Origin: Candidatus Omnitrophota bacterium
GTDB taxonomy: Bacteria > Omnitrophota > Gorgyraeia > Gygaellales > JAQTUX01
NCBI GenBank assembly: GCA_028707125.1
Contig: JAQTUX010000001.1
Span: 269,639-333,638 of the forward strand
DNA: 64,000 bases
Direction of reading: 5' to 3'
In this document: piece after piece, positions 7,710 through 58,515 of the stretch
Position numbering within the stretch: position 1 is the stretch's first letter
Layout: every line of letters starts with the position of its first letter
Notes under the pieces: model-generated
Told to the model about the DNA's origin: nothing
The model's database searches: none
Seen by the model: the letters and a program-made list of their open reading frames with translations, nothing else
Made by a program: the position numbers and the translations under genes

Positions 7710-10421
7710 ATGATAACGCTGGAAGACGTTTGGCTGAAATACAGGATAGCGTTCAAGGAAGGCGCGAGGGCCGTTTGCGAGGATTTCTGGGCGCTTAAGG
7801 GCATAGACCTGAATGTCGGCAAGGGAGAGTGTTTCGCGGTCATCGGAGAGAACGGCTCAGGCAAGACCACGCTCCTGAGGGTGATCAGCGGCATGCTAAT
7901 GCCTGACAAGGGCAGGGTGCGCCTGGGAGGAAGGGTCGCCGGGCTTATGGAGATACAGGCCGGTTTCCATCCTGAACTGACCGGCAGGGAGAATATCTAC
8001 AATATCTCGGCGCTTTCAGGCCTGAGCGCCGATGAGACAGGCGCCTGTTACGCGGACATGGTTGAGTTTGCCGCCATCGGCAGGTTCATCAACGCCCCGG
8101 TAAAGACATACTCCCAGGGCATGCTTGTGCGCCTTGCCTTTGCCATAGCCATACACGCGCGCACCGACATATTGCTGGTTGACGACATATTCGCGGTAGG
8201 CGATATTTATGCCCGGCGCAAGTGCATTAATAAGATGTTTGAGCTGAAGGATAAGGGCCTGACCATTATTTTTGTTTCTCATGACCTGGATATTGCCAGG
8301 CGGCTGTGTAAAAGAGGCGTGCTGCTCAGGGAAGGCAGGGTTATCAGGGCCGGTTCAATAGACGGACTCGTCAGTTATTATCTTGAGACGGTAGGCAATA
8401 AGGAAGGTATAGCCCTGCTGCAAAAAGGGCGGCTGGCAATTATTTTTAATAACGGCAAGCTGATCATCAGGTGGAACGACTCCGCTCTTACCAAGGGCGC
8501 GGCCGGGCATACGGTGATGAGCTCTTCGGGCAGGACATATCAGTCAGATACCGCCTCCTGGATTATCCGGCAGCCGGCGGCAGCCGATGAGATCGTTGCC
8601 GTAGGCAGGTGGCCGGATATGCCGGCTGAGCTTATCTGGAAGATACGCTGCCGCGGCGAAAAGGAATTCAGCTGGGATGTAACTCTGCAGGCGCGCGCAC
8701 AGGCCCGGATAGAGGATTACACGGCCAGATTGATCCTGACCGACGAATACGAGGGCTGGTTTACATCGCAGGAGGAATACGTTTTTCCGGAGGCGTTCCT
8801 GCATGAGAACGAATGGCAGAGCCGCCGGATAGACGATCATCTTAACTGGCTGATAGGGTTAAAGACGGGAGCCGATAGCGGCGAAGGCCTGCCAACGCTT
8901 GTTTTAGACAGCTCAGGCGCGGATAAACAGGGCGCCTGCCAGATCGGCAATACCGGCATTGAGGCCTCTGCCAGAGGTATTCAGTTCAATTACGTTAATC
9001 CGGAACCAGAGCATGCCGCGGGCAGCTATAAGTTTTTTTCAACCGGCGTGAAGTTATTTGAGGAGCGGGACAGGCAGGATTTTGAATGTTATATGGCGCG
9101 GGCAAGGCAGGCCGGCAGGCGCAGGATCATCAGCCGCGGCCCGCTCGCCCTGTGTTGCGGGCAGCGCAAAATAGAGATTTTCCTGCGGGATGCGCTTTTA
9201 AGCAGCGGCGCGGGGCTGGATACGAAATTCATCTGGCAGGGCCGTACCTACAGCGCCGCCGGAGGTAACTGGTCCGTAGAAAAAGAAGGAGATAATTATC
9301 TTGTAGTTAATATCTTTTGGGGGCCCGAAGCGCCTTTTTTCCAGGTATGGAGAATGGAACTGCGGGATGAGTCCGCCATTTTCTGGCAGGCGGATATGGA
9401 AATAAGAGATGGGCTGGAGATCAGGAACAGGCAGGTTGAGCTTTTTCTCAGCGGCCGATATGACAGGTGGTTTACGCCTTCGGAAAACGGCGACTTTGGG
9501 GCAGTGGAAAAAAAAGGCAACACAGTCATACTAAGTAAATACATAAACGATTTTTCCGGCGTAGAACAGTCCTGCCTTATGCCGGCGGTTACCTTCGCCA
9601 ATCAAGACGGCCGCGCCAGAGTGTCGTATATTTCCCGGGGCCAGGACAAGGAATTAAATACGAAGCTGCATTATCTGGAGATAGATCCCGCCGCTGACGC
9701 GGCGCTTGAAGCAGGCAGGCACGCCTTTTTTAAGGGGGCCATAAGGATAGCGCCCAGGCAGGGACAAAAAGGCGTTGACGCGGTTGTCAATAATAACGGC
9801 GCGGCCGCGGCGATAAATTTTAACGGCGTTTCTCTGGATTTCAGGCACGGCAGGATGCGTCTTTTCTATGAAGGCGTTGAATTGACAAAAGGGCTGGGCC
9901 TTTACTCTGCGGTTTTGCATGAAGGCAACTGGCATGATTCTTCGCAGGGACTATGGAAGGTCGAGGCCTCGGACAGGGAAAGGTTCGTCGCCGTGGGCCG
10001 CTGGCCGTGGCTGCCTGTCAGGCAGGAATGGGAAGTAACGCTATTGGATGGCCGCGATATCATCTGGCGCATAACCAGGGATACCCGGGACGGCTTTGAT
10101 CCCGACAAGGAGCAGGTTAACCTGATGCTGTCGGATAATTACCGGGAGTGGTTTGTCCGGGAAAGGGCGCGGGGAAGGTTTCCCGAAGAGTTTGCCGAGC
10201 ATACCCGCGGCGGGTTCTGGGAGCGGTTATGGTCGGCGGCAGCGCAGTCGCCGGTCGGCGCCAAAGGGCCTGGGCTGCCGTCTGTCCTCCTGGACTGTTC
10301 AGAGAGCCCGGTTCCCGGCCGCCTGTGCATTGAGAACACGGACGCGTTATTCAAGGCCAGGGTCCTGCAGTGCGAATCGGCGCAGCAAAAACATTTTAGC
10401 GGAAAGATAAAGATATGCTGA
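7710..10421 (+). CDS. ABC transporter ATP-binding protein (Wzt/TagH-like) with ~650-aa C-terminal extension of repeated Trp-rich beta domains
   Basis: Walker A GENGSGKTTLLRVISG, signature-like YSQGMLVRLAFA, Walker B ILLVDD. C-terminal 650 aa carry three related ~110-aa units, e.g. VAVGRWPDMPAELIWKIRCRGEKEFSWDVTLQ...YEGWFT / FWGPEAPFFQVWRMELRDESAIFWQADMEIRD...YDRWFT / VAVGRWPWLPVRQEWEVTLLDGRDIIWRITRD...YREWFV. Confidence 0.8.
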   Translation: MITLEDVWLKYRIAFKEGARAVCEDFWALKGIDLNVGKGECFAVIGENGSGKTTLLRVISGMLMPDKGRVRLGGRVAGLMEIQAGFHPELTGRENIYNISALSGLSADETGACYADMVEFAAIGRFINAPVKTYSQGMLVRLAFAIAIHARTDILLVDDIFAVGDIYARRKCINKMFELKDKGLTIIFVSHDLDIARRLCKRGVLLREGRVIRAGSIDGLVSYYLETVGNKEGIALLQKGRLAIIFNNGKLIIRWNDSALTKGAAGHTVMSSSGRTYQSDTASWIIRQPAAADEIVAVGRWPDMPAELIWKIRCRGEKEFSWDVTLQARAQARIEDYTARLILTDEYEGWFTSQEEYVFPEAFLHENEWQSRRIDDHLNWLIGLKTGADSGEGLPTLVLDSSGADKQGACQIGNTGIEASARGIQFNYVNPEPEHAAGSYKFFSTGVKLFEERDRQDFECYMARARQAGRRRIISRGPLALCCGQRKIEIFLRDALLSSGAGLDTKFIWQGRTYSAAGGNWSVEKEGDNYLVVNIFWGPEAPFFQVWRMELRDESAIFWQADMEIRDGLEIRNRQVELFLSGRYDRWFTPSENGDFGAVEKKGNTVILSKYINDFSGVEQSCLMPAVTFANQDGRARVSYISRGQDKELNTKLHYLEIDPAADAALEAGRHAFFKGAIRIAPRQGQKGVDAVVNNNGAAAAINFNGVSLDFRHGRMRLFYEGVELTKGLGLYSAVLHEGNWHDSSQGLWKVEASDRERFVAVGRWPWLPVRQEWEVTLLDGRDIIWRITRDTRDGFDPDKEQVNLMLSDNYREWFVRERARGRFPEEFAEHTRGGFWERLWSAAAQSPVGAKGPGLPSVLLDCSESPVPGRLCIENTDALFKARVLQCESAQQKHFSGKIKIC

Positions 10422-13400
10422 AGGGCCTTTTATTTAATAACAGGAACAGGCGCGCGATAGAACGCGCCGGCATAAAAATAGATATTGATGAAGAGCGCCG
10501 CTTCAGGATCTACCATAACGGCAGCGAGCTCAGCAAGCTGCAGGGCATGCGCGTCTGTTTGTTTTCAGAGGGCAGATGGCACTATTTTCCCGCCAAAGAC
10601 AGTATCTTGAAGATAAGCAGGCCCGATGAAACCAGTTTTAGTTTGCGGCTTTACAATAGAACGCTGCCTGTTGTCCTGCATTGGGGAATGGAGCTGGGTG
10701 AGGGCAGCCGGTTGAAATGGAGCGTGGAATTAGAGCTAAAGGGGCCCATACGGCTGGATGCCGTGAAGGCCGTAGTGCTCCTCAGCCGTTCCTATAAAAG
10801 CTGGTTCTCTTATTCCGGCGCTAAAGAGGGCCTGTTCGCTGATAGCGCCGGAGAATTCCGGCAGGAGATCGGTATTGCCGATTCTGATTTTTTAAGCATT
10901 GGCGCGGACAGGCCGGAAATTGCCACGCTGCTGTTAAGGGCGGTTGATTCGCCTTTAAATGTTTCTTTGTGTAACACGGATGATCTGTCTTCCTCGCGTG
11001 AAGTTGATCTCTGCTGCAACGGGCAGAAGGAATTTTATGCCCCCGGCAGGCACTCTTGTTTTCAGGCGGTTATTGAACTCTGCGGGGATAAGTCCGCAGT
11101 AGAAAATATCATTCAGGATGTAAAAGGCAGAAAGAGGCGCGAAGAAGAAGAGGCGCTGCGTAAAAAGGAAGAGGAGCGCCTGGCGGAAGAAGAACAGCGC
11201 CGGCTAGAGGAAGAACGCCTGCGCCAGGAGGAACAAAGGCGCCTGGAAGAAGAGCGCCGAAAACAGGAAGAGCTCAAGCGCCTGGAAGAAGAGCGCCTGA
11301 GAATTGAGCGCGCGCGGGACCGGCAGCGGCGCACGCTTGAGGCGGGTGATTTCAGGATTTATTTTGACTACAATAACCGTTTCCATTTCTACCACAGGAA
11401 TGAGGAGTTTACCAAGGCGCATGGCCTGCATACGGGTATATTTTCAGAGGGCCGCTGGTATGGTTCGGCGGATTCAGAGGCCGCTATAGAGAATAGTGAG
11501 CCGGGTAGATTAAGGATCAATTTCAGGCACAGACATCTGCCCGTTATTCAATCCTGGGACCTGCGGTTAGATTCCGCGGGAGTAATCAGGTGGAGCGTTG
11601 ATATGCGGCTTGAGCAGCCGTTAAGGATAGAGCGCAGGAACGCCTGCCTGTTTTTGTCCCGCGCCTATGACAGGTGGCTTGCGCCTCCGGACGCGGGGGC
11701 GTTCCCCGCGGCATTCGGCCTGCAATGGCAGATGGCCAGCCCTTCGGAGAGCAGGCCGGGCTTTATAGGGCTGACGTCCGGGATGAAGCAGCTGCCGGGC
11801 ATAACATTAAAGGGCTCCGAAGACGGCGGCCGCCTGGCTGTTCATAACGCGGATATGGATGTCTCATCCCGCGTCCTTGAGGAGCGTTTTGAAGAGCGCG
11901 TAGAGTTTTACAAGGCAGGCGATTACTCTTTCTCGCGGGCGGTCATCCGGCTTTATAATGATAACGCGGCCATCGAGGGCGCGTTCAAAGAGGCGGAAGA
12001 AAAAGAGAACGCGCTCAGAGAGTTGCGCAAAGAGCGGCTGAGGCGCGCCGCCGGGCTAAGGCAGGGGAGAAAAGAATTTGAGGGGCTGCGCCTGCGCCCC
12101 GCGGCCTCGCGCGTCGTTATTTACGGCGATTCCCAGGGCCTGCACGATAAGATCAGCGGCGAGGCAGGCGGTTTTAACAGGGCCGTAGCGTGCATTAAGG
12201 CAGAAAGCGGCACAGCCGCGGTAGGTATCTCACGGTTTAATTTCTTCAAGATCCATGAGGTCGTCCAGTTCATCTCTACTTTGAGGAACGCGCGGATCGA
12301 TACGCGCCCTGTCTGCCTGCCGCTGTTTCCGGCAAGCGGTATTTACTCCAGTTTTCTTAATTACATAAAGGAGATCAAATCTCTCGTCGCAGGAAAGGGC
12401 ATCGAACTTTTCTTAAAAGACGTTGATCTGCTCAAACTCCTGCAGGCTGTGTCTTCGCAGTCCAATAGAGATAACGAGAGGGACCTGCTGCGGCTTCTGG
12501 GGCTGATAGCCGAGCATCCCTTTATCGGGCCGCAGACGCTGGTCCTCGACACAACGCATAAATGCAATACAAACTGCGCCCATTGCTGGATACACAACCC
12601 CCGCAGCAAGACGCCCCCCGCCGTGCTCGAATCAAAGATGGACGACCGCCTGTACAGGAAGATCATTGACGACGCGGCAGCCATTTTGAGCGACGAGGTC
12701 ATAATACAGGGCGACGGAGAGCCGCTTCTGGACGACCGCTTTATCGAGATGGCGCGTTACGCCAGGGACAAGGGGTTAAAGGTCCTGTTCTTTACCAACG
12801 GCATACTCCTGGATGAGGCGACGGCTAAATGCCTGATAGACCTGGAGGTCAATGAGATATTCTGCAGCCTGCCCGCCGGGACCGACCTGACCTACAGCTG
12901 GATAAATTCGCGGCAGTCAAAAGACACCTTCCACAGGATCGTCGGCAATCTGAAAAACCTGATCTCCCTGAGGAACGGCTCGGGCAGGCCCCTGCCGCTT
13001 TTGCAGATGACCCACGTGATACACAATATGAATTGCCATGAGATCGAGCAGATGTCCGCTGTTGACGCGGACATAGGCGCGGACAGGGCACGCTTCTACC
13101 TGGCCCGCCTTGACGAGAACATCGCGCATTTAAAGATACTATCTTCACAGGTAGAGGCGCTAAAGGCATCCCTGCGGAAGGCCGCCGCGTTGCTTAAAGA
13201 AAGCAAAATAGACCTGCAGGACAATATTTTTTTCCAGCTGGACAATTATCAGCCGGAGACCGGTTACTGGTCGCAGGGCCGTTTTCTTGAAACGGGCTGC
13301 CCGGTGGGGTGGTTTTTCGCGCTGATATTGGCTGGAGGAGAATTGAGCATGTGCTGCCATATGCGGGTGGTCGGGCGCCTGGGGGAAAGATCGCTGAGGG

Positions 13401-13588
13401 AGGCGTGGAATTCCCGGGAATACAACGATTACAGGGTCAAGGCCAAACATATGCGGGACAATATGGACGCGCGTTTCTCAAACGGCGTCAAGCTTTACGA
13501 TGATTTCTGCAATCATTGCGATACGCATCAGGTGATCTTAAGGATAAACGGCCTGCTGGAGCGATACGGGCTGAAGAAATTCTTATAA
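10415..13588 (+). CDS. Multidomain radical SAM/SPASM protein: Trp-rich domain - ER/K-rich single alpha-helix - Trp-rich domain - linker - radical SAM core - Cys-rich C-terminal (SPASM-like) domain
   Basis: CX3CX2C motif in LVLDTTHKCNTNCAHCWIHNP. C-terminal cysteines GCPVGW...MCCHM...FCNHCDTH. Two N-terminal domains (RWHYFP...LHWGMELGEGSRLKWSVELEL...YKSWFS; RWYGSA...QSWDLRLDSAGVIRWSVDMRL...YDRWLA) resemble the ABC ATPase tail repeats. Charged stretch EEEALRKKEEERLAEEEQRRLEEERLRQEEQRRLEEERRKQEELKRLEEERLRIERARDRQRR. Confidence 0.8.
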   Translation: MLKGLLFNNRNRRAIERAGIKIDIDEERRFRIYHNGSELSKLQGMRVCLFSEGRWHYFPAKDSILKISRPDETSFSLRLYNRTLPVVLHWGMELGEGSRLKWSVELELKGPIRLDAVKAVVLLSRSYKSWFSYSGAKEGLFADSAGEFRQEIGIADSDFLSIGADRPEIATLLLRAVDSPLNVSLCNTDDLSSSREVDLCCNGQKEFYAPGRHSCFQAVIELCGDKSAVENIIQDVKGRKRREEEEALRKKEEERLAEEEQRRLEEERLRQEEQRRLEEERRKQEELKRLEEERLRIERARDRQRRTLEAGDFRIYFDYNNRFHFYHRNEEFTKAHGLHTGIFSEGRWYGSADSEAAIENSEPGRLRINFRHRHLPVIQSWDLRLDSAGVIRWSVDMRLEQPLRIERRNACLFLSRAYDRWLAPPDAGAFPAAFGLQWQMASPSESRPGFIGLTSGMKQLPGITLKGSEDGGRLAVHNADMDVSSRVLEERFEERVEFYKAGDYSFSRAVIRLYNDNAAIEGAFKEAEEKENALRELRKERLRRAAGLRQGRKEFEGLRLRPAASRVVIYGDSQGLHDKISGEAGGFNRAVACIKAESGTAAVGISRFNFFKIHEVVQFISTLRNARIDTRPVCLPLFPASGIYSSFLNYIKEIKSLVAGKGIELFLKDVDLLKLLQAVSSQSNRDNERDLLRLLGLIAEHPFIGPQTLVLDTTHKCNTNCAHCWIHNPRSKTPPAVLESKMDDRLYRKIIDDAAAILSDEVIIQGDGEPLLDDRFIEMARYARDKGLKVLFFTNGILLDEATAKCLIDLEVNEIFCSLPAGTDLTYSWINSRQSKDTFHRIVGNLKNLISLRNGSGRPLPLLQMTHVIHNMNCHEIEQMSAVDADIGADRARFYLARLDENIAHLKILSSQVEALKASLRKAAALLKESKIDLQDNIFFQLDNYQPETGYWSQGRFLETGCPVGWFFALILAGGELSMCCHMRVVGRLGERSLREAWNSREYNDYRVKAKHMRDNMDARFSNGVKLYDDFCNHCDTHQVILRINGLLERYGLKKFL
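11140..11310 (+). repeat. 39-nt tandem coding repeats (x3-4) encoding the ER/K-rich helix
   Basis: gaagaacagcgccggctagaggaagaacgcctgcgccag / gaggaacaaaggcgcctggaagaagagcgccgaaaacag / gaagagctcaagcgcctggaagaagagcgcctgagaatt (11189-11305), preceded by a degenerate copy. Confidence 0.7.
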
Positions 13589-13593
13589 AAGAT

Positions 13594-36402: not shown

Positions 36403-37993
36403 AGTCATAAGATTGCCCGGTTTTTTCAAGAAGCGGCAATTCTCTTCAGGGCCGAATTGCTGCCTGATACCTCCTTTGGGACTGGGGCTTATCAGCGCGC
36501 ACCTTCGCTCCAAAGATATGCCGGTAGAGCAGGCGGATCTCAATATTGAGATCCATCACAATAATTACTATTCCGATTCAGCCGCGGACAAGATTGATAC
36601 CGAGGTATTTTTTGACCTGCCGCGCGTAGAGAGATACGCGCTTGGCGGCAGCGATCAATATATAGATTCTATTATGGACAGGGCAGCCGGTAAGGCCGGG
36701 GTGGGCCAGGGGCAGTTTATGCTTCTTTCTCTGCCGGACAATATCGAGAATGAAACAAACCTTTCTTTCGCGCTGGCCTTTACGCGTTTTATCAAAGACC
36801 GATACGGCACCATAAACATATTGGGCGGGCAGGGGCCGTGGCTGGGCCATATGCGTTCCCGGTATGGCTGCCGAAATATAGATCATATCCTGCGCGGCGA
36901 CGGCGAATACCTTCTTGACCGGATTTTTGACGCGCCGGAAGCGGGCCCCGCGTTCTCCGGCGGGCCGTATCTGTCGGTTGAAGACGGCGGCAAGGTGATA
37001 ACTTCAAATAAGATATGCAGGCCGATCAAACCCGATTTCTCCGGCCTGCCCATGGACAAATACAGGTCCAGGCAGGAGGTGCTGGAGCATCCGCGGGAGC
37101 TTGGGGGTTTAATGGATGAATTCCAGAAAAATGGGGCGTTGCTTTTGCCGTACAGGTTTATCAGGGGATGCCCCTTTGAGTGCATCTTTTGTGTTTCCTC
37201 AACCCAGAGTTTAAGCCACGCGCTTTCTCCGGCGGAGATCGCCGGGCACCTGGAGTCCATGCAGGAACAATACCGGCCGGACGGGTTCTTCTTTTTGAAC
37301 GATACCATAAATATATCCAGGAAGTTCATAAATGAATTGTGCGATGAGATATTAAACCGCGGGCTTAAGGTCTTGTGGAGCGACTGCGCCAGGGCGGACA
37401 ACCTGGACAGGGACACGCTTTTTAAGATGCGCCGCGCCGGATGCATACGCCTGATCTTCGGGATGGAGACGGCCAGCCCCCGTTTGCTGAAGTACATAAA
37501 TAAACGGGTGGACCTGGCGCAGCTGGAGAACGTCCTGCGCTGGTCTGATGAGGCCGGCATCTGGACCGGGGTTGAGGTGATCTGCGGTTTCCCCCACGAG
37601 CGGGAGGAAGACATACGGGCCACGATCTCGTTCCTGAATAAAAATGAGGAATATATCAACCGCGTGTACCTGAATCATTTTGACCTGAGGCAGGGCAGCA
37701 TGCTTTACGATTCTCCCCGGAAATACGGCCTGAAGCGGGTCATTGAAGTCAATCAATGCACGCAGAGGGATTTCAGCAGTTATGTTCAGTTTGGCTTTGA
37801 CGAAGACGGGGGGCTGGCCTGGGAAGAAAAAGAGAGGCAGATGGAGCGTTCCCTGGGAATGGTCCGGGACAGCTGCGCGCGGGGCTCGAGGTTTTTTACA
37901 GACGAGCATCTTTTATTTTTTCTTTATTCCAGGTTCAGCGATAAGGAGAGGATAAGATCCATTTATCTCAAGATCCTCAAACAGGAGGGGTGA
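36383..37993 (+). CDS. B12-binding radical SAM protein (paralog of the C-terminal two-thirds of 34348/28478, no TPR)
   Basis: FIRGCPFECIFCVSSTQS; RAGCIRLIFGMETASPRLLKYINKRVDLAQLENVLRWSDEAGIWTGVEVICGFPHEREED is almost identical in pattern to the upstream gene. Confidence 0.8.
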   Translation: MPKRGIKVIRLPGFFKKRQFSSGPNCCLIPPLGLGLISAHLRSKDMPVEQADLNIEIHHNNYYSDSAADKIDTEVFFDLPRVERYALGGSDQYIDSIMDRAAGKAGVGQGQFMLLSLPDNIENETNLSFALAFTRFIKDRYGTINILGGQGPWLGHMRSRYGCRNIDHILRGDGEYLLDRIFDAPEAGPAFSGGPYLSVEDGGKVITSNKICRPIKPDFSGLPMDKYRSRQEVLEHPRELGGLMDEFQKNGALLLPYRFIRGCPFECIFCVSSTQSLSHALSPAEIAGHLESMQEQYRPDGFFFLNDTINISRKFINELCDEILNRGLKVLWSDCARADNLDRDTLFKMRRAGCIRLIFGMETASPRLLKYINKRVDLAQLENVLRWSDEAGIWTGVEVICGFPHEREEDIRATISFLNKNEEYINRVYLNHFDLRQGSMLYDSPRKYGLKRVIEVNQCTQRDFSSYVQFGFDEDGGLAWEEKERQMERSLGMVRDSCARGSRFFTDEHLLFFLYSRFSDKERIRSIYLKILKQEG

Positions 37994-38991
37994 TGGCCGC
38001 TGGCAATCCCCGTTTTTGCGATATCGTGGTCTCCAACCGGTGCCTGCTCAGGTGCAGGATGTGCAAGTCCTGGCAGTGCGGGCCTCAATCAAACGAGATT
38101 ACTCTTTCGGAGGCAAAGCGGTTCGTAGAGGGGCTTTCCGAATTTGTCAAGGAGCCCCTGGAAATAAACGTGATGGGCGGAGAGCCGTTATGGAAGGATT
38201 GGTGCCTGGACCTCTGCGCCTTTATTTCCAAAAAGGGCTTCAGGTCCATAATTTCCACAAATGCCTACCTTATAGACGAAGATATGGCAAGGCGCATAGC
38301 GGATTCGGGGTTGAACGTGCTGGCGATCTCGCTGGAAAGCCTGAATCCGGCGACGCATAATTTCTTAAGGGGCAGGGAAGATGTATTCTCCAGGGTGATG
38401 AAGGGCATAGAGAACATCCGCAGGTTCTGCGGCCCGGACCTGACAGTCACCATCCTCACCATAATAATGGAGAGGAATTTAAGCGAGATAATCGAGCTGA
38501 CGGAATGGGTGAACAGCGACAGGTTGTTCCAGAACATCTCTTTTCTGGCACTGCTGGAAACAGGCCTGGTAGAGGACAGGAATGGATGGTTCAGAAGCCC
38601 GGTGTACAAGGAGCTTTGGCCGCAGGACACGGAGAAGCTTTACCGCCTCATAGATGAATTAAAGGAGAAAAGAACGCGGGGTTACAAGATCTGGAATCCG
38701 CTTTCGCAGCTGGACGCGTTCAAAGATTATTATACCGAGCCGGAGCGGTTTATGAGAGAGACGCAATACCGCGTTCATGATTATATAATAGATTTAGATG
38801 AGAACGGCATTATCTACCTTAGCGGAGAGGCCCTGGGCAACATCAGGGATGATAATGTGCGGGGACTCTGGTTTTCAGATAAGGCGCAGGCGATCAGGGA
38901 GAAGATCGATGCGCGCGGCCCGGGGAAGAGGTGCTGCGTTATTAACTTTGTCTGCGCCTTCCCGCAGGACAGTGAATATGCCAAACGATAA
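37990..38991 (+). CDS. Small MoaA/twitch-like radical SAM paralog 12 (divergent C-terminus)
   Basis: PRFCDIVVSNRCLLRCRMCKSW; MGGEPLW; ISLESLNPATHNFLRGRED. C-terminus is GKRCCVINFVCAFPQD instead of CX3CX5C. Confidence 0.75.
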   Translation: MMAAGNPRFCDIVVSNRCLLRCRMCKSWQCGPQSNEITLSEAKRFVEGLSEFVKEPLEINVMGGEPLWKDWCLDLCAFISKKGFRSIISTNAYLIDEDMARRIADSGLNVLAISLESLNPATHNFLRGREDVFSRVMKGIENIRRFCGPDLTVTILTIIMERNLSEIIELTEWVNSDRLFQNISFLALLETGLVEDRNGWFRSPVYKELWPQDTEKLYRLIDELKEKRTRGYKIWNPLSQLDAFKDYYTEPERFMRETQYRVHDYIIDLDENGIIYLSGEALGNIRDDNVRGLWFSDKAQAIREKIDARGPGKRCCVINFVCAFPQDSEYAKR

Positions 38992-39961
38992 ATCCCATAT
39001 GATTGGAAGGCCGAAATTCTGCGTTATAGAGGTATCGCATAGATGCATGTTCCGCTGCAAGATGTGCAACTACGGAGTATCCGCGCCCGAGCCGGAGGTC
39101 AGCGTCGGAGAACTGATAGGATACGTATCGTCATTCAAGGATTTTGTGAACACGCCTTTTGAGATAAACATCTCCGGCGGAGAGCCGCTTTTAAAAGAGG
39201 GCGCGCTGGAATTGCTGGGGTTCATCAGCGGCCTGGGATTTAACAGCTCCATGGCCACCAACGCCTATTTGATCAACAGGGAAAACGCCAGGCGCCTGGC
39301 GGATTCAGGGGTGGGGGTTGTCCCCATATCCTTGGACAGTTTAGATGGGCGCGTCCACGACTACCTTAGAGGAAAGGATGGGGCGCATAAGAACGCCATG
39401 GATGCCTTAAATTATTTTATGGAATACAGGGGCAGATTGAGGGGGGTGGTTATCCAGTCGATCATCATGGAGCCGACGCTGGATGGGCTGGTGGAGCTTG
39501 CCGGATGGGCCGATCAAAGGGACATCTCGGTATCATTTATGGCGGTAATGCGGCCGAATATGGTCCCTGTTGATTTAAGATGGCATGAAAGAGAGGAGTT
39601 CAGCTTTCTCTGGCCGAAGGATACCGCTAAAGCGCATTCCGTCATTGATAAGCTGATAGAAATGAAACAGTCGGGCTGCCGCGTAGATACGCCTGTCGGC
39701 CAGTTGAGGCGTTTTAAGTCGTATTTCGCCGATCCGCTTCAGTTCGTAAGAAAGGCCAGCTGCGGCCTGGGCGAGGATATCGTCCATATAAATAACAAGG
39801 GCGACATTTACCTTTGCTGCGAGATGGAACCGATCGGTAACGTAAAAGACGCCGATATACGCTATACCTGGTTTTCGCCGAAAGCCGCGCGGGTCAGGCG
39901 GGAGATAAAAAAATGCCGGAGAAATTGCGCGGAGATGATAAACTGCTATCGGGAGGAGTGA
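38978..39961 (+). CDS. Small MoaA/twitch-like radical SAM paralog 13
   Basis: PKFCVIEVSHRCMFRCKMCNYG (conserved Trp replaced); SGGEPLL; ISLDSLDGRVHDYLRGKDG; CRRNCAEMINC. Start set at the Met at 38978 overlapping the upstream stop (ORF track begins at 38798). Confidence 0.75.
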   Translation: MPNDKSHMIGRPKFCVIEVSHRCMFRCKMCNYGVSAPEPEVSVGELIGYVSSFKDFVNTPFEINISGGEPLLKEGALELLGFISGLGFNSSMATNAYLINRENARRLADSGVGVVPISLDSLDGRVHDYLRGKDGAHKNAMDALNYFMEYRGRLRGVVIQSIIMEPTLDGLVELAGWADQRDISVSFMAVMRPNMVPVDLRWHEREEFSFLWPKDTAKAHSVIDKLIEMKQSGCRVDTPVGQLRRFKSYFADPLQFVRKASCGLGEDIVHINNKGDIYLCCEMEPIGNVKDADIRYTWFSPKAARVRREIKKCRRNCAEMINCYREE

Positions 39962-39965
39962 CGGC

Positions 39966-41636
39966 GTGAAGGCGGGGAAAATAAGCATTTTTTATAAAGA
40001 GCTAAGAAGCGCCTGCCCCAGGAATATAAAGGGGGTTTTCCGCAACCCGGGAAAGCTGCTGCGGTATGCCAGGGCATTTTTTAATTATGATATGGGGGCC
40101 GACGATAAGAACATGCGGCCTATGGATACGGCCAACGCATGCTGTTTATTCGGGGACTTTGAAGAGCTGCACGACAGGATCGCTGGCAGAGAAGGCGGCT
40201 ACAAAGATAAGATATCGAGCATCGGGTCCGCCTTGAGCCGGAAACAACCAGTGAAGATAAGCGTGGGGATATCGCGTTATAACTTCGGGCGGCTGCATAA
40301 GGTCTGCGAGCATGGAATGGCGCTTTTGGGAGAGAAGGCGGATCTATCAGGGATCGGTCTTGAGGTCTTTCCCGTCAAGGACCTGCCGCAGAATTTCATC
40401 GCTTATATTGAGGCATTGAAGCAGCGCCTTGACCCGCAAAAAATAGAACTCGTTGTCCACGACAATGAGTTGATGGATATCCTCAAGACCGTGGGGCTGC
40501 ACGCGCGGGTAAACGACGAGCGGGAGAAGGACCTCCTGCGGCTTCTGGGGGTCATAAGCGAACAGGTATTTATCGGGCCGCAGACGATCGTCTTTGATCC
40601 CTATCACAGGTGCAATACCAGATGTAAACATTGCTGGGTGCATACGCCCGGGGTCAGCCATCCCGAGGAGTTCCTTGACCGCAAATTTGATTTTGAGATA
40701 TTCAAGCGGATTATAGACGATGCTTCGGAGATGAAGGTGGACGGCATCATCCTGCAGGGTGACGGCGAACCGCTGATATACGACAAGTTCATGCCCATGC
40801 TCAGATACGCCAAGTCCAGGGACCTGGGTGTCCTGTTTTTTACCAACGGCATCCTCCTTGATAAGGAAAAATCAAAAGAGGTGATAGACCTGGGGGTCAA
40901 TGAGATATACTGCAGCTTTCCCGCCGGGACAGCCGTTACCTACGAAAAGATATCCTCTGTGCAGCCGGCGGAAACATTTTATAAGGTCCGGGATAACCTC
41001 AAGAGCTTTATGTCGTTAAGAAGGGGGATGAATAAACCGCATCCGCGGCTTATCATCAGCCACGTAATACATAATATGAATTATCATGAATTGACGGAGA
41101 TGGCCGGGATGGACGCCGATATAGCGCCCGACGCGGTCAGGTTCTACCTTATAAGGCTGGACGTGATGAACAGGTTCCTCCAGCTTGAGCCCCGTCAGAT
41201 AGAGGAGATAAAAAGGCAGGTGCCGGAGATCTCCAGGATCTTGAAAGAAAAGAACATAGAGTTCGTGGATAATTTCGGTTTCCAGCTGAACAATTATGAT
41301 GAAAAGACCGGCGCCTGGTCCAAGGATTTCTTCCTGAGGCACGGCTGCAATATCGGCTGGTATTTCAACCTTATACCGGCGAGATACGATATGAGCTTCT
41401 GCTGCCACCTGCGGACCGTGGGATACGTTGACAGGCAGTCATTCAAGGATATCTGGAACTCGGTGGATTACTGGCGCTGGAGAAGGCAGGCGAAATATTT
41501 AAAAGACAATAAATACGCGAAATTCGCCAACGGGCAGGTTCTTTATGACGAACATTGCGACCATTGCGATAATCACCAGACGATAATAAGGAATTTACGG
41601 GAGATCAGGAAGTATGGTCTGGATAAATACTATTAA
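39966..41636 (+). CDS. Radical SAM/SPASM-like protein; paralog of the C-terminal ~550 aa of the 10415 gene (no Trp-rich domains)
   Basis: EKDLLRLLGVISEQVFIGPQTIVFDPYHRCNTRCKHCWVHTPG vs ERDLLRLLGLIAEHPFIGPQTLVLDTTHKCNTNCAHCWIHNP. C-terminal GCNIGWYFNLIP...SFCCHLRTVGYVDRQSFKDIWNS...HCDHCDNHQ parallels 10415. GTG start assumed. Confidence 0.75.
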   Translation: MKAGKISIFYKELRSACPRNIKGVFRNPGKLLRYARAFFNYDMGADDKNMRPMDTANACCLFGDFEELHDRIAGREGGYKDKISSIGSALSRKQPVKISVGISRYNFGRLHKVCEHGMALLGEKADLSGIGLEVFPVKDLPQNFIAYIEALKQRLDPQKIELVVHDNELMDILKTVGLHARVNDEREKDLLRLLGVISEQVFIGPQTIVFDPYHRCNTRCKHCWVHTPGVSHPEEFLDRKFDFEIFKRIIDDASEMKVDGIILQGDGEPLIYDKFMPMLRYAKSRDLGVLFFTNGILLDKEKSKEVIDLGVNEIYCSFPAGTAVTYEKISSVQPAETFYKVRDNLKSFMSLRRGMNKPHPRLIISHVIHNMNYHELTEMAGMDADIAPDAVRFYLIRLDVMNRFLQLEPRQIEEIKRQVPEISRILKEKNIEFVDNFGFQLNNYDEKTGAWSKDFFLRHGCNIGWYFNLIPARYDMSFCCHLRTVGYVDRQSFKDIWNSVDYWRWRRQAKYLKDNKYAKFANGQVLYDEHCDHCDNHQTIIRNLREIRKYGLDKYY

Positions 41637-42825
41637 TTCAATGCGCCGATCTAAGGAAAGAGCCGCCTCAATAGCCTTCGGCATAGTGTTGTTTTTTCTG
41701 CTCCTTGAGCTTGGCATGCGCGCGGGAGCGGCCCTGCTGGCGTATTCGCAGGAACACAGGAACATAGTTTCCTTAAGGCAGAAACATACCTGCCGCATCG
41801 TCTGCCTTGGAGAGTCCACGACAGCCGGAGGGATGTATTCTTATCCGGCGCGGCTGGAAGAAGTCCTGAACAACGCCGGCATAGGCAGGGAATTCAGCGT
41901 GATAAATAAGGGCGTAGTTGGGATAGATACATCGGGAATACTGGCTGGTTTAGACGGCGTCCTTGATAAATATGAGCCGGATATAGTGATCGCGATGATG
42001 GGGGCAAACGATGAGCGGCCGCACCTGCTCTTTCATGTTGATTCCGGTTCGACGATAGTGGATCTTCTCGCCGGCTTAAAGACCGTTAAGCTGGCAAGAA
42101 TGCTTTGGTTTAATATCAATAGCAGGATCAGGCCGCCGCGGGCCATAAGGTCCGCCACGGAAAACAGCACGGTATATTTTGACCTGGGCCAGTTTTACAG
42201 GGACCGCAGGGAATATGTGAAGGCGGAGGAGATGTTCAGGGCCGCCGCGCAGGAGAATACGGCTGATTACAGGCCCTATTTTGAGCTGGGCTGCCTCTAT
42301 AAGAAAAGAGGGGATTTTTCCGGAGCGGCGGGGATGTTCAAGAGGGCGATAGAATTGGAGCCGGACAATGACAGGGCCTACAGAGGCATCCTGGCCATAT
42401 ATAATGAATTATCCCTTTATGGAGACGGAAAGGAATACCTTGCCTTGCTGTTGGAAATGAAAAAGAGGCACTATCGACCTTCGGCTATCATTACTCTGAC
42501 GCCCAATAACTACCGTAAATTGAAGGAGGCCCTGGAGAAGAGAGGGATACTGTTGGTCTGCGCGCAATACCCGATGCGCAGCATCGAGCCGCTGGAGGAG
42601 ATATTCGGCTCCGGGGAGGGCGTGATCCTTGTTGATAATGAAAAGATATTTAAGGACGCGGTCCGATCGGGAGGTTATGACAGGTATTTTACCGATACCT
42701 TTGGCGGTGACTTCGGGCACTGCACGGCAGAGGGTAACCTGCTTCTGGCGAAGAACATAGCTGATGTGATCATGGCCAGGGTGTTTGATAAAAATGGCCG
42801 GCTCGCTTATCGCAAAACCCATTGA
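41614..42825 (+). CDS. Membrane-anchored SGNH-family hydrolase with TPR-like insert (paralog 3; GES variant of block I)
   Basis: TM N-terminus; RIVCLGESTTAGGMYSYP; IVIAMMGANDE; FGGDFGHCTAEGN; TPR-like YRPYFELGCLYKKRGDFSGAAGMFKRAIELEPDNDRAYRG. Confidence 0.65.
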   Translation: MVWINTINSMRRSKERAASIAFGIVLFFLLLELGMRAGAALLAYSQEHRNIVSLRQKHTCRIVCLGESTTAGGMYSYPARLEEVLNNAGIGREFSVINKGVVGIDTSGILAGLDGVLDKYEPDIVIAMMGANDERPHLLFHVDSGSTIVDLLAGLKTVKLARMLWFNINSRIRPPRAIRSATENSTVYFDLGQFYRDRREYVKAEEMFRAAAQENTADYRPYFELGCLYKKRGDFSGAAGMFKRAIELEPDNDRAYRGILAIYNELSLYGDGKEYLALLLEMKKRHYRPSAIITLTPNNYRKLKEALEKRGILLVCAQYPMRSIEPLEEIFGSGEGVILVDNEKIFKDAVRSGGYDRYFTDTFGGDFGHCTAEGNLLLAKNIADVIMARVFDKNGRLAYRKTH

Positions 42826-44177: not shown

Positions 44178-44179
44178 CA

Positions 44180-46561: not shown

Positions 46562-46567
46562 GTCGAT

Positions 46568-49492: not shown

Positions 49493-49494
49493 CG

Positions 49495-50121
49495 ATGCGA
49501 AGGCCATATCTATTGATCAAAAGATCCGCCGATATAATCGCCGCCTCAGTGCTCCTGTTGCTGTTTTCCCCGTTATTTATAATACTGGGCCTGTTGATCG
49601 GCATGGATTCCGGCGCCCCTGTTTTTTTCAGGCAGACGAGGATAGGCAGGAACGGACGGAGGTTTAACATCTATAAATTCAGGACAATGCGCGAAGGCGC
49701 GGACAGATCGCAGGATCAATATGCCGATCTTAATGAATGGCCGCGGCCTTTATTCAAGGTCCGCAATGACCCGCGCCTTACCCGCATAGGCGCGCTCTTG
49801 CGCGACACGAATTTAGACGAGCTGCCGCAGCTGCTCAATGTTTTAAAGGGCGATATGAGCCTTATCGGGCCCCGCCCCTTTCAGGCAAACGAGGTGGATC
49901 TTTCCGACCGGCGGCAGCGCGGGCGCCTGGAGATCCTGCCCGGCATGGTCTCGCTGTGGCACGTGTCGGGCCAATACAGGCAGGGTATGAGTTTTGACGA
50001 GTGGATGGAGAGCGACCTGCGCTACGCAAGGGATATTTCTTTGTTTCTGGACGCGCAGATCCTGTTGAGGACTATCAGGATGTTAGGCCGGCACATTATT
50101 TTGAAGTTTTCCCTACGCTGA
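49495..50121 (+). CDS. Undecaprenyl-phosphate sugar phosphotransferase (bacterial sugar transferase, WbaP C-terminal-domain type; initiating enzyme)
   Basis: [57 protein letters not shown]; [21 protein letters not shown]. Confidence 0.8.
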
Positions 50122-53067: not shown

Positions 53068-53085
53068 GGGCCCGACAGGACTAAC

Positions 53086-54105: not shown

Positions 54106-54153
54106 AAGTCCTTATGCTTCAGTTATCCGTAACCGGCAGCGTTGTTTGATTAA

Positions 54154-58497: not shown

Positions 58498-58515
58498 AAC
58501 AAAGGGAACATCCGG

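What the first reader, a model, noticed from the sequence alone, without database searches (positions are those of the whole stretch)
10415..42825. Three repeated gene modules, each ending with a TM-anchored SGNH-TPR hydrolase
Gene order reads as iterated modules. Module A (10415-20449) is a large rSAM/SPASM with Trp-rich domains, a B12-rSAM, an rSAM/SPASM, two small rSAMs, then an SGNH-TPR. Module B (20421-33357) is eight small rSAMs, a TPR-B12-rSAM, a B12-rSAM, then an SGNH-TPR. Module C (33323-42825) is a small rSAM, a TPR-B12-rSAM, a B12-rSAM, two small rSAMs, a large rSAM/SPASM, then an SGNH-TPR. A fourth SGNH-TPR (59398) precedes the last rSAM/SPASM-SPASM-B12 trio. This modularity suggests segmental duplication of a cassette (MoaA-like rSAM + B12-rSAM + SGNH esterase/acyltransferase) followed by divergence. 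It could specify successive or alternative decorations of the same polymer.
Basis: seen in the sequence. Interest (0 to 1): 0.75.

Follow-up and report, generated by a model that had tools for sequence, protein, structure and literature searches.

The report
Ordered radical-SAM battery in glycan operon
An uncultured Omnitrophota bacterium carries a sugar-polymer export operon holding 21 consecutive radical-SAM enzyme genes; their order is conserved across related genomes, so this is an old fixed array and not three duplicated modules, and its chemistry is unknown and probably new.

Summary
An independent assembly is 100% identical across both module junctions. The module-duplication reading fails.

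- Each of the 13 small radical-SAM/SPASM paralogues has its own orthologue, 52-80% identical, in other Omnitrophota. Paralogues in the window are at most 45% identical.
- 151 of 157 orthologues in 15 loci keep the window's order.
- SGNH-TPR genes are accessory. They number 0-2 per locus, occupy five different slots, and are absent from five collinear loci.
- Component trees disagree: g23 pairs with g24, g05 with g27, g10 with g21, and g28 with g43.
- One block does behave as a unit. The g19-type TPR-B12 enzyme and the g21-type SGNH always occur together.

The array most likely tailors a glycan.

- It lies between Wzm/Wzt and glycosyltransferase genes.
- A new ~200-aa domain with a galactose-mutarotase-like fold is shared by Wzt, g05 and g06.
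- Elsewhere Wzt and g05 are fused into one protein, and a Desulfatibacillum homologue is fused to a GT2.
- The closest solved structure to a small paralogue is the sugar enzyme BlsE.
- No precursor peptide gene or peptide-recognition domain was found.

The product and the reactions remain unknown. I found no published description.

The parts
6933..7709 (+). g03, Wzm-type ABC-2 permease
   Evidence: PF01061 ABC2_membrane, E 1e-10. Six hydrophobic segments.
7710..10421 (+). g04, Wzt-type ABC ATPase with three copies of domain X (residues 228-441, 468-~680, 691-903) in place of the canonical Wzt_C domain
10415..13588 (+). g05, 2 x domain X + linker + radical-SAM/SPASM. Fused to Wzt in other Omnitrophota.
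   Evidence: Pfam. Domain X at 8-207 and 302-498. P0127 (RKY36779.1, 1856 aa) aligns end to end with g04 and then g05.
13516..15798 (+). g06, B12-class radical SAM (best NCBIfam model HpnJ, below cut-off) with a C-terminal domain X
   Evidence: Radical_SAM E 4e-23; B12-binding 22 bits. HpnJ 272 bits against a cut-off of 577. Domain X at 538-725. Own orthogroup, 100% support.
15795..17114 (+). g07, mid-size radical-SAM/SPASM
   Evidence: Pfam. Orthologues 49-60% identical, upstream of the g08 orthologue, in L001, L009, L010, L022 and L028.
17114..19176 (+). g08 and g09, small radical-SAM/SPASM paralogues; a sister pair
   Evidence: Pfam. 44% identical. Sister with 98% bootstrap.
19163..20449 (+). 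g10, membrane-anchored SGNH hydrolase with a TPR insertion (type found next to g11 in other loci)
   Evidence: Pfam. TM at residues 4-22. Clade with the SGNH genes next to g11 in L012, L016 and L022, 91% support.
20421..28494 (+). g11-g18, eight consecutive small radical-SAM/SPASM paralogues (35-43% identical to each other)
   Evidence: Pfam. All-vs-all BLAST. Each except g16 sits in its own orthogroup with 93-100% support. Order conserved across loci. g16 is lineage-specific.
28478..30640 (+). g19, TPR + B12-class-like radical SAM. Accessory gene that co-occurs with g21.
   Evidence: Pfam TPR + Radical_SAM, no B12-binding hit. Orthogroup 100%. Co-occurrence with g21 type.
30564..32054 (+). 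g20, B12-binding radical SAM
   Evidence: PF02310 39.9 bits + Radical_SAM. Orthogroup 100% and not sister to g24.
32047..33357 (+). g21, membrane-anchored SGNH hydrolase with a TPR insertion
   Evidence: Pfam. Invariant S56, N124, D401 and H403. Positional orthologues lie between g20 and g22 in 7 other loci.
33323..34357 (+). g22, small radical-SAM/SPASM
   Evidence: Pfam. Orthogroup 100%.
34348..37993 (+). g23 (TPR + B12-class-like rSAM) and g24 (same without TPR); a tandem sister pair
   Evidence: 46% identical. Sister with 91% support. One 119-nt stretch is 89% identical at DNA level (family D6).
37990..39961 (+). g25 (small rSAM lacking 3 of 5 auxiliary Cys) and g26 (small rSAM/SPASM; probable true start at 38978). 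One fused ORF in other genomes.
   Evidence: Fused 673-701-aa ORFs in L001, L013 and L020.
39966..41636 (+). g27, large radical-SAM/SPASM, paralogue of the g05 C-terminal half
   Evidence: 43% identical to g05 residues 556-1056. Orthologues 48-69% identical precede the GT4 gene in L001, L013, L015, L027 and L028.
41614..42825 (+). g28, membrane-anchored SGNH hydrolase with a TPR insertion
   Evidence: Pfam. TM at 17-35 after RRSKER. Clade with g43 and the SGNH genes between g14 and g15, 100%.
42984..50121 (+). g29-g34, glycan assembly genes: GT4, Wzy_C (ligase/polymerase-like) + TPR, GT2, GT2, GT4, and a Bac_transf phosphoglycosyl transferase
   Evidence: Pfam. The GT4 (g29) orthologue follows the g27 orthologue in L001, L013, L015, L027 and L028.
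50135..59382 (+). g35-g42, further anaerobic tailoring genes: DUF362, an unknown, an rSAM, a HemK-like methyltransferase, a HemN/ChuW-like rSAM, a PMT_2 GT-C, and a UbiU-like U32 protein with a putative partner
59398..60798 (+). g43, fourth membrane-anchored SGNH hydrolase with a TPR insertion
   Evidence: Pfam. TM at 6-24. 35% identical to g28.
60711..63999 (+). g44, g45 (radical SAM; SPASM not detected) and a truncated B12-binding radical SAM that runs off the window end

Best explanation
**What it is.** The region is one long operon of an uncultured Omnitrophota bacterium. It builds, tailors and exports a surface glycan by the ABC-transporter (Wzm/Wzt) route. Its core is an old, order-conserved array of 21 radical-SAM genes: 13 small BlsE-like SPASM paralogues, 3 larger SPASM enzymes and 5 B12-class enzymes. 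The array grew by one-gene-at-a-time tandem duplication before the sampled Omnitrophota lineages diverged. Each paralogue has since been kept as a distinct orthologue. The SGNH-TPR genes do not end modules. They are accessory genes of at least three old types that are gained, lost and moved within the array.

**Proposed mechanism (shown versus inferred).**
1. Inferred from family membership: a Bac_transf enzyme and GT2/GT4 enzymes assemble a polyprenyl-phosphate-linked glycan at the cytoplasmic face.
2. The link to the glycan pathway rests on domain sharing and fusions; the chemistry is inferred. The radical-SAM enzymes carry out oxygen-independent tailoring of sugar residues. The B12-class enzymes would do C-methylation or rearrangement. 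The SPASM-class enzymes would start from H-atom abstraction and do epimerisation, oxidation, decarboxylation or deoxygenation. Each paralogue would act at its own site.
3. Inferred: g05 and g06 reach the substrate or the exporter through the same mutarotase-like domain X that Wzt carries in triplicate, so tailoring is coupled to export.
4. Inferred: after export, the SGNH-TPR enzymes edit ester-linked groups on the glycan. They are anchored by one helix with the catalytic domain predicted outside the membrane. The Wzy_C-TPR protein then attaches the glycan to its acceptor.
For: **Evolutionary structure**
- Orthologues are 52-80% identical; window paralogues are at most 45% identical.
- Orthogroup bootstraps are 93-100% with unresolved nodes between orthogroups.
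- 151 of 157 genes are collinear in 15 loci.
- SGNH genes occupy five slots or are absent.
- The interval between g18 and g22 shows three nested states.

**Glycan link**
- The array is flanked by Wzm/Wzt and by GT4, Wzy_C, GT2, GT2, GT4 and Bac_transf genes.
- Natural fusions exist:
  - Wzt + X + g05-like rSAM/SPASM (P0127, P0204).
  - B12-rSAM + rSAM/SPASM + X (P0181).
  - GT-C (PMT_2) + X (P0136).
- Desulfatibacillum alkenivorans DSM 16219 has a GT2-linker-small-rSAM fusion. It sits beside GT4 genes, a Wzt with a canonical Wzt_C domain, and a sulfotransferase. A second genome has the same fusion at 71% identity.
- Homologue arrays lie beside Wzm/Wzt and GT genes in Aenigmatarchaeota, Woesearchaeota and other lineages. 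27 of 43 loci of at least 15 kb carry homologues of the window's glycan genes.
- Sequence hits in the PDB include the sugar enzymes DesII and BlsE.
- The radical-SAM motif starts at residue ~13-28, which leaves no room for a peptide-recognition domain.

**SGNH-TPR**
- Ser, Asn, Asp and His are invariant in 23 sequences.
- The nearest solved relatives are acetyl-xylan esterases.
- K/R residues precede the single TM segment.
Against: - No substrate or product is known, and all evidence is computational.
- SPASM enzymes are best known as peptide maturases. CteB is the best PDB sequence hit (1.6e-8).
- The best NCBIfam models for the B12-class genes include RiPP methyltransferases (ApyD, TIGR03975), though far below their cut-offs.
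- Nothing distinguishes action on the lipid-linked polymer from action on soluble sugar precursors.
- The trees are neighbour-joining with 100 bootstraps, not maximum likelihood.
- Loci extend only 10 kb to each side, so gene absences near locus ends are uncertain.
- The outward topology of the SGNH proteins rests on the positive-inside rule alone.
Confidence: 0.6

Rival explanations
1. Three or four modules arose by segmental duplication of a cassette (small rSAM + B12-rSAM + SGNH-TPR) and then diverged.
For: - The same four protein families recur along the locus, and an SGNH-TPR gene closes each block.
- g18-g19 and g22-g23 are both a small rSAM followed by a TPR-B12-like rSAM, each pair 39% identical to its counterpart.
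- The g19-g20-g21 block behaves as a unit of presence and absence.
Against: - Component trees are incongruent. g23+g24 are sisters (91%), and g20 is not sister to g24. g05 pairs with g27 (A-C), g10 with g21 (A-B), and g28 with g43 (C-D).
- Relationships among the small rSAMs are star-like; the only resolved pairs are g08+g09 (98%), which are neighbours, and g15+g25 (64%), which are not.
- The rSAM order is conserved in loci that lack every SGNH gene, such as L001, L013, L015 and L020. Elsewhere SGNH genes sit in other slots.
- There is no DNA-level segmental similarity.
Confidence: 0.05
2. The array matures a ribosomal peptide or protein, for example the giant fibre protein g01. SPASM enzymes would make cross-links or epimerise residues, and B12 enzymes would C-methylate, as in proteusin-type pathways. 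The glycan genes would be neighbours only.
For: - SPASM domains and TPR domains are typical of peptide-modifying systems.
- ApyD and TIGR03975 are among the best NCBIfam models for g19 and g20.
- A 2016-aa secreted-looking protein lies upstream.
Against: - The tightly packed operon has no small precursor ORF. Gaps within the array are 0-160 nt.
- There is no N-terminal peptide-recognition domain; the rSAM motif starts at residue ~13-28.
- g01 contains no Cys, and no g01 homologue was detected in any related locus.
- The known fusions are with Wzt and GT2, not with peptide-processing domains.
- All NCBIfam RiPP models score far below their cut-offs.
Confidence: 0.12
3. The enzymes act on soluble sugar precursors (nucleotide sugars or similar) before polymerisation. 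They would make a set of unusual monomers rather than tailor the lipid-linked polymer.
For: All characterised sugar-acting radical-SAM enzymes close to this family act on small molecules: BlsE, DesII, BtrN and AprD4 (PMC3715490).
Against: - The window has no nucleotidyltransferase, dehydratase or aminotransferase genes for sugar-nucleotide synthesis.
- g05 and g06 share a domain with the exporter's substrate-recognition region, and g05 is fused to Wzt elsewhere.
- Thirteen conserved paralogues would imply an implausibly large set of monomers.
Confidence: 0.15
4. The array tailors a membrane lipid (hopanoid-like, ether or ladderane-like lipid), which the ABC transporter then exports.
For: - The best NCBIfam model for g06 is HpnJ (272 bits).
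- A 'lipid biosynthesis B12-binding/radical SAM' model and the tetraether synthase Tes appear among weak hits.
Against: - All of these hits are far below their cut-offs (HpnJ cut-off 577; Tes 43 against 450).
- The window has no lipid backbone synthesis genes, whereas a full set of glycan assembly genes is present.
- The mutarotase-like domain X and the GT2 fusion point to carbohydrate.
Confidence: 0.05

Closest known systems
ABC-transporter-dependent O-antigen/glycan assembly (Wzm/Wzt; E. coli O9a, Klebsiella, Aquifex WzmWzt; PMC9445017, PMC3482155, PMC11231755)
   Same: - Wzm permease and Wzt ATPase.
- Phosphoglycosyl transferase, GT2/GT4 enzymes and a Wzy_C ligase-like protein.
- Wzt carries a C-terminal extension. 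In the model systems this extension recognises a chemically modified chain end.
   Different: - The extension is three copies of a new mutarotase-like domain, not the Wzt_C jelly-roll.
- The same domain is carried by two radical-SAM enzymes, one of which is fused to Wzt in other genomes.
- No known system contains a radical-SAM battery.
- No WbdD- or WbbB-type terminator was identified.
BlsE, cytosylglucuronate decarboxylase, and other sugar-acting radical-SAM enzymes (DesII, BtrN, AprD4)
   Same: - Similar size (~330 aa) with the radical-SAM motif at the very N-terminus.
- A C-terminal auxiliary Cys-rich domain and no peptide-recognition domain.
   Different: - Only 15% identity over the structural alignment.
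- Those enzymes act singly on small-molecule antibiotic precursors.
- Here 13 conserved paralogues sit in a polymer export operon.
SPASM-type RiPP maturases (CteB, SuiB, SkfB, AlbA, PqqE) and anSME
   Same: - Radical-SAM core plus a C-terminal SPASM-like Cys motif (CX12GX4C...).
   Different: - Only five conserved auxiliary Cys (CX12GX4C...CX3CX5C) instead of seven or eight.
- No RRE/PqqD domain and no precursor peptide gene.
- Fusion partners are Wzt and GT2.
Class B (cobalamin-dependent) radical-SAM enzymes: HpnJ, GenK, Fom3, PhpK, ApyD
   Same: - N-terminal B12-binding domain plus a radical-SAM core in g06, g20 and the last ORF.
- g06 scores 272 bits on the HpnJ model.
   Different: - No model reaches its cut-off.
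- g19 and g23 have N-terminal TPR domains, and g06 has a C-terminal domain X.
- The B12 domain is undetectable by Pfam in g19, g23 and g24.
Extracytoplasmic SGNH polysaccharide esterases and O-acetyltransferases (AlgX/AlgJ, PatB/Ape1, the OafB SGNH domain; acetyl-xylan esterase Axe2)
   Same: - Catalytic Ser/Asn/Asp/His blocks.
- Single-helix membrane anchoring with a predicted outward-facing domain.
- Association with a polysaccharide export locus.
- Axe2 is the nearest solved SGNH sequence.
   Different: - A TPR array of roughly 230-270 aa is inserted inside the SGNH fold.
- The window has no MBOAT or acyltransferase-3 partner to supply acyl groups.
- There are three or four paralogues per locus, in variable positions.

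Membership tests
   - B12 family: g23+g24 sister (91%); g20 is a separate orthogroup.
- g05 pairs with g27 (A-C).
- SGNH: g10 with g21, g28 with g43.
   - rSAM order is conserved (151/157) while SGNH genes vary in slot or are absent.
- Only the g19 and g21 pair flanking g20 behaves as a unit.
   Only motif-length matches of 41-141 nt at 60-89% identity.
ABC-transporter-dependent (Wzm/Wzt) glycan pathway | ABC-2 permease plus ABC ATPase pair of the Wzm/Wzt/TagGH type | tested here: met
   PF01061 and PF00005 match. The best NCBIfam models are TagH and Wzt/RfbE, below their equivalog cut-offs.
ABC-transporter-dependent (Wzm/Wzt) glycan pathway | Wzt C-terminal carbohydrate-binding domain (Pfam Wzt_C) | tested here: not met
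   g04 has no Wzt_C hit. Three domain X copies take its place. The Desulfatibacillum relative does carry Wzt_C.
ABC-transporter-dependent (Wzm/Wzt) glycan pathway | Initiating phosphoglycosyl transferase and cytoplasmic glycosyltransferases in the same locus | tested here: met
   Bac_transf E 5e-60; GT2 x2; GT4 x2.
ABC-transporter-dependent (Wzm/Wzt) glycan pathway | An exported polyprenyl-linked glycan product | not testable with these tools
   Requires biochemistry.
Radical-SAM/SPASM subfamily | CX3CX2C radical-SAM cluster motif | tested here: met
   C21, C25 and C28 are present in 103-104 of 104 family members.
Radical-SAM/SPASM subfamily | Full seven-Cys SPASM motif for two auxiliary clusters | tested here: inconclusive
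   - Pfam SPASM hits in 12 of 13, at 19-35 bits.
- Only five conserved C-terminal Cys, plus C13 in 81% of members.
- g25 lacks three of the five.
RiPP-maturing radical-SAM enzymes | N-terminal RRE/PqqD-like peptide-recognition domain or a separate RRE protein | tested here: not met
   The rSAM motif starts at residue ~13-28. No PqqD/RRE Pfam hit in any ORF.
RiPP-maturing radical-SAM enzymes | Adjacent precursor peptide gene | tested here: not met
   Genes overlap or abut. Only spurious ORFs of 20-30 aa lie in the 6180-6932 gap. A 47-aa ORF in L001 was not followed up.
Class B cobalamin-dependent radical SAM | N-terminal B12-binding (Rossmann) domain | tested here: inconclusive
   - Met for g20 (39.9 bits) and the last ORF (46.7 bits).
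- Sub-threshold for g06 (22.4 bits).
- Not detected in g19, g23 or g24, which align to g20 over that region at 26-27% identity.
SGNH/GDSL hydrolases | Catalytic Ser (block I), Asn (block III), Asp/His (block V) | tested here: met
   S56, N124, D401 and H403 are invariant in 23 sequences. Block II Gly was not examined. Lipase_GDSL_2 scores 33-76 bits.
Galactose-mutarotase-like carbohydrate-binding domains (domain X) | Supersandwich beta fold | tested here: met
Galactose-mutarotase-like carbohydrate-binding domains (domain X) | Binds carbohydrate | not testable with these tools
   Inferred only from the fold and from partner domains (Wzt, GT-C, rSAM in glycan loci).

The most novel reading that the evidence does not exclude
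A previously unrecognised way of diversifying glycans in anaerobes. More than 20 radical-SAM enzymes, kept in fixed order, would rewrite unactivated C-H positions of a lipid-linked polysaccharide at the polymer level, by C-methylation, epimerisation, deoxygenation or cross-linking. They would be physically coupled to the Wzm/Wzt exporter through a shared mutarotase-like recognition domain. The product would be a surface glycan with chemistry not seen in known polysaccharides.
Probability: 0.35. Interest if true: 0.9.

Novelty: new variant of a known kind. Interest (0 to 1): 0.72.

Why it matters
- Radical-SAM chemistry on sugars is known only for small-molecule natural products. A conserved battery wired to a polysaccharide exporter would extend it to cell-surface polymers and would predict unknown sugar structures.
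- Omnitrophota are ultra-small, probably host-dependent cells, so their surface is likely central to their lifestyle.
- The 13 paralogues, each with a clear orthogroup, form a natural series for studying how substrate or site specificity evolves in one enzyme scaffold.
- Domain X is a candidate new substrate-recognition module for Wzt transporters.
- For genome annotation, repeated domain patterns in a locus need not mean module duplication. Synteny with relatives settles the question.

Tried and rejected
- **Genome scan with g18 alone.** It found nothing because the patterns were too specific. It succeeded with an alignment of orthologues.
- **Word-indexed protein search with domain X.** It returned nothing. 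The exhaustive representative search found 624 proteins.
- **Search for more GT2-rSAM fusions.** A search with the Desulfatibacillum rSAM half gave 60 hits, none with a GT2 domain. The fusion is documented only in two Desulfatibacillum genomes.
- **Sequence search of domain X against the PDB.** Only chance nanobody hits.
- **Literature.** Searches combining Omnitrophota/Omnitrophica, radical SAM, SPASM, Wzt, polysaccharide, O-antigen and cobalamin found no description of this array.
- **Elusimicrobia radical-SAM clusters beside nitrogenase paralogues** (10.1101/765248). Considered and rejected, because no nitrogenase-like gene is in the window.
- **Strict co-occurrence of all SGNH-TPR genes with all TPR-B12-rSAM genes.** It does not hold: L015 has a TPR-B12 gene and no SGNH, and L011 and L017 show the reverse. 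Only the g19-type/g21-type pair is strictly linked.
- **Recent duplication.** Rejected by the DNA repeat scan.
- **Assembly artefact.** Rejected by two independent assemblies.

Full report
**1. What is in the sequence**

The whole 64-kb window is one + strand gene string with overlapping or abutting ORFs and steady positive GC skew. I numbered the ORFs g01-g45.

Pfam and NCBIfam scans give this gene order:

| Genes | Content |
|---|---|
| g01 | 2016-aa protein with a C-terminal endosialidase-chaperone domain |
| g03, g04 | Wzm, Wzt |
| g05 | large radical-SAM/SPASM |
| g06 | B12-class radical SAM |
| g07 | radical-SAM/SPASM |
| g08-g09 | small rSAM/SPASM |
| g10 | SGNH-TPR |
| g11-g18 | eight small rSAM/SPASM |
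| g19 | TPR-rSAM |
| g20 | B12-rSAM |
| g21 | SGNH-TPR |
| g22 | small rSAM/SPASM |
| g23 | TPR-rSAM |
| g24 | rSAM |
| g25-g26 | small rSAM |
| g27 | large rSAM/SPASM |
| g28 | SGNH-TPR |
| g29-g34 | GT4, Wzy_C-TPR, GT2, GT2, GT4, Bac_transf |
| g35-g42 | DUF362, an unknown, rSAM, HemK-like methyltransferase, HemN-like rSAM, PMT_2, UbiU-like U32 and a putative partner |
| g43 | SGNH-TPR |
| g44, g45, last ORF | rSAM, rSAM, truncated B12-rSAM |

That makes 21 radical-SAM genes inside the finding's range and 26 in the window.

Each SGNH-TPR protein has one N-terminal hydrophobic helix preceded by Lys/Arg. Two independent Logan assemblies reproduce the middle of the locus, including both 'module' junctions. 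L078 is 100% identical over 17,587 nt and L079 is 99.9% identical over 7,902 nt.

**2. Corrections to the description**

- The small enzymes are not MoaA-like. Across 104 family members the conserved residues are CX3CX2C at residues 21-28, GGE, five C-terminal Cys (CX12GX4C...CX3CX5C), and several Trp/Tyr.
- Pfam finds SPASM in 12 of 13 small enzymes.
- g25 has lost three auxiliary Cys. Its orthologues have too, and they are fused to the g26 orthologue in L001, L013 and L020.
- Pfam sees no B12 domain in g19, g23 or g24.
- In the SGNH proteins the TPR array is inserted between catalytic blocks III and V. Ser, Asn, Asp and His are invariant in 23 sequences.

**3. Test of the module-duplication idea**

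*Identity levels.* All-vs-all BLAST shows paralogue identities of 35-45% among the small enzymes.
- The best cross-module pairs do not follow the modules: g05-g27 link A and C, g10-g21 link A and B, and g28-g43 link C and a fourth block.
- g23 and g24 pair within C.

*Orthologues elsewhere.* Homologues of g18 are Candidatus Omnitrophota proteins of about 60% identity. That is well above any paralogue in the window.

*Synteny.* I fetched 74 loci from one-genome-per-species contigs plus five by exact look-up, and labelled their ORFs against the window genes.
- In 15 Omnitrophota loci, 151 of 157 radical-SAM genes with at least 45% identity lie in the window's order.
- L001 has orthologues of g07-g09, g11-g15, g17, g18, g20, g22, g24, g25+g26, g27 and the GT4 in the same order. 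It has no SGNH-TPR, no TPR-rSAM and no g16.

*Trees.* Neighbour-joining trees with 100 bootstraps gave the following.
- Every small paralogue with sampled orthologues falls in its own orthogroup, with 93-100% support (g08 74%).
- Nodes between orthogroups have 35% support or less. The exceptions are the neighbours g08+g09 (98%) and g15+g25 (64%).
- The B12 family splits into five orthogroups, with g23+g24 sister (91%) and g20 apart.
- SGNH-TPR genes form at least three types with preferred slots: the g21 type between g20 and g22, the g10 type next to g11, and the g28/g43 type between g14 and g15. They number 0-2 per locus.

*DNA level.* Repeats are only motif-length.

*Conclusion.* The array was built by single-gene tandem duplications before these lineages split. 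It has been kept in order since, and the SGNH genes are accessory.

One genuine unit exists. Between the g18 and g22 orthologues there are three nested states:
- nothing;
- g20 alone;
- TPR-rSAM(s) + g20 + SGNH.

The g19 type and the g21 type are always together: 8 of 8 loci counting the window, against 0 of 5. These loci are not phylogenetically independent.

**4. What the array acts on**

Several lines point to a glycan made by the ABC-transporter route.

a. *Context.* Wzm/Wzt lie upstream. Downstream are a full set of glycosyltransferases, a phosphoglycosyl transferase and a Wzy_C protein. The GT4 follows the g27 orthologue in several other loci.

b. *A shared ~200-aa domain, domain X, with no Pfam model.*
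- It occurs three times in the Wzt C-terminal extension, twice at the g05 N-terminus and once at the g06 C-terminus.
- Three of its nine invariant positions are Trp.
- In model systems the Wzt C-terminal domain recognises the modified end of the polymer (PMC9445017).

c. *Fusions.* An exhaustive profile search found 624 representative proteins with domain X.
- P0127 (RKY36779.1, Omnitrophota) is an end-to-end fusion of Wzt and g05 orthologues.
- P0204 is similar.
- P0181 fuses a B12-rSAM, an rSAM/SPASM and X.
- P0136 is a GT-C glycosyltransferase with three X copies.

d. *A cultured relative.* In Desulfatibacillum alkenivorans DSM 16219, the homologue of the small enzymes is the C-terminal part of a 724-aa protein.
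- Its N-terminus is a GT2, joined by a long charged linker.
- It sits beside another SPASM/rSAM gene, two GT4 genes, a Wzt with a canonical Wzt_C domain, and a sulfotransferase.
- A second Desulfatibacillum genome has the same fusion at 71% identity.

e. *Other lineages.* Smaller arrays sit beside Wzm/Wzt and GT genes in Aenigmatarchaeota, Woesearchaeota and other lineages. 27 of 43 loci of at least 15 kb contain homologues of the window's glycan genes.

g. *No peptide system.* There is no room for a peptide-recognition domain, and no precursor gene was found.

**5. Proposed mechanism and its limits**

Every step below is inferred; no reaction or product has been observed.

1. A lipid-linked glycan is assembled in the cytoplasm.
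2. The radical-SAM enzymes tailor it without oxygen. The B12 class would do C-methylation or rearrangement. The SPASM class would do chemistry started by H-atom abstraction.
3. g05 and g06 are coupled to the exporter through domain X.
4. Wzm/Wzt export the glycan.
5. Outward-facing SGNH-TPR enzymes edit ester groups. Their nearest solved relatives are acetyl-xylan esterases.
6. The Wzy_C-TPR protein attaches the glycan to its acceptor.

The downstream UbiU-like U32 protein with its putative partner, the HemN-like rSAM and the HemK-like methyltransferase fit a theme of oxygen-independent tailoring.

What is shown is the gene content, the conserved order, the shared domain, the fusions and the fold similarities. 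Every chemical step, the stage of action (polymer or precursor), and the topology of the SGNH proteins are inferences.

**6. Rivals**

| Rival | Why it falls short | Confidence |
|---|---|---|
| Peptide or protein maturation | No precursor gene, no recognition domain, wrong fusion partners. g01 has no Cys and was not found in any related locus. | 0.12 |
| Tailoring of soluble sugar precursors | Cannot be excluded, but fits the Wzt fusion poorly. | 0.15 |
| Lipid tailoring | Rests on sub-threshold HpnJ and Tes hits only. | 0.05 |

**7. Novelty**

Full-text searches found no description of this array, of domain X, or of Wzt-radical-SAM fusions. A recent Omnitrophota genome survey mentions radical SAM only as one Pfam domain within giant proteins.

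I rate this a new variant of a known kind: an ABC-transporter-dependent glycan locus with an unprecedented radical-SAM tailoring battery. If polymer-level radical tailoring coupled to export is confirmed, it would be a new category.

Noticed in passing
window 129-6179 (+): g01 is a 2016-aa protein with no Cys. It has repeated 'GGNVGIGT...' and 'AAELNFVDGVTSAIQTQLDAK' segments and a C-terminal Peptidase_S74 intramolecular-chaperone domain, like a tail-fibre or surface-fibre protein. It lies directly upstream of the export operon. No homologue was detected in the related loci, whose flanks are limited to 10 kb.
   Followed up: partly
window 37990-39961; L001 15089-17149; L013 12024-; L020 13449-: The g25 orthogroup has lost three of the five auxiliary-cluster Cys (positions 263, 281, 315 in g18 numbering). 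It is fused to the g26 orthologue as one 673-701-aa protein in other genomes. In the window the two are separate ORFs that overlap by 14 nt if g26 starts at 38978.
   Followed up: yes
L030 8792-10966 (Desulfatibacillum alkenivorans DSM 16219, NZ_FQZU01000001.1); L034 3697-5829: A GT2 glycosyltransferase, a charged coiled-coil-like linker and a small radical-SAM/SPASM form one protein in a cultured sulfate reducer. The gene sits beside a Wzt with Wzt_C and a sulfotransferase. The layout recalls the coiled-coil chain-length/terminator enzymes WbdD and WbbB, and the organism offers a tractable entry point.
   Followed up: partly
window 50135-59382 (+): A sub-cluster holds DUF362, an unknown membrane protein, a 307-aa rSAM, a HemK-like methyltransferase, a HemN/ChuW-like rSAM, a PMT_2 GT-C enzyme, a UbiU-like U32 protein (100 bits, below cut-off) and a 288-aa possible UbiV-like partner. 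This suggests oxygen-independent hydroxylation and methylation steps.
   Followed up: partly
window 35737-35855 vs 37376-37494: A 119-nt stretch is 89% identical between g23 and g24. That is far above their overall divergence (46% protein identity). It may reflect gene conversion or very strong constraint.
   Followed up: no
window 25488-26531 (g16): g16 is a lineage-specific extra paralogue. Clear orthologues appear only in the near-identical or closely related contigs (L003 84%, L005 47%). Most collinear loci go from g15 straight to g17. Conversely, many loci have two g08-like genes where the window has one.
   Followed up: partly
P0136 (1247 aa, ENA metagenome protein): Domain X also occurs three times at the C-terminus of a PMT_2-type GT-C glycosyltransferase. 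In that protein it would presumably face the periplasm, so the domain is not restricted to cytoplasmic proteins.
   Followed up: no
L035-L037 (Aenigmatarchaeota), L031 (Woesearchaeota), L029 ('Methanosarcinales' MAG), L072 (Elusimicrobia): Arrays of 2-10 homologous small rSAM/SPASM genes lie next to Wzm/Wzt, GT2 or Wzy_C-TPR genes in DPANN archaea and other phyla. This suggests either lateral spread or an old origin for the rSAM-glycan association.
   Followed up: partly
L001 626-769: A 47-aa ORF was called between the g07 and first g08 orthologues in GCA_028716965.1. The window has no counterpart, since g07 and g08 abut. It was not checked as a possible peptide.
   Followed up: no
window 6257-6655 (+): g02 is a 23S rRNA-intervening-sequence-type four-helix-bundle protein. 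It sits alone between the giant protein gene and the export operon, with the largest non-coding gap of the window (6656-6932) after it.
   Followed up: no
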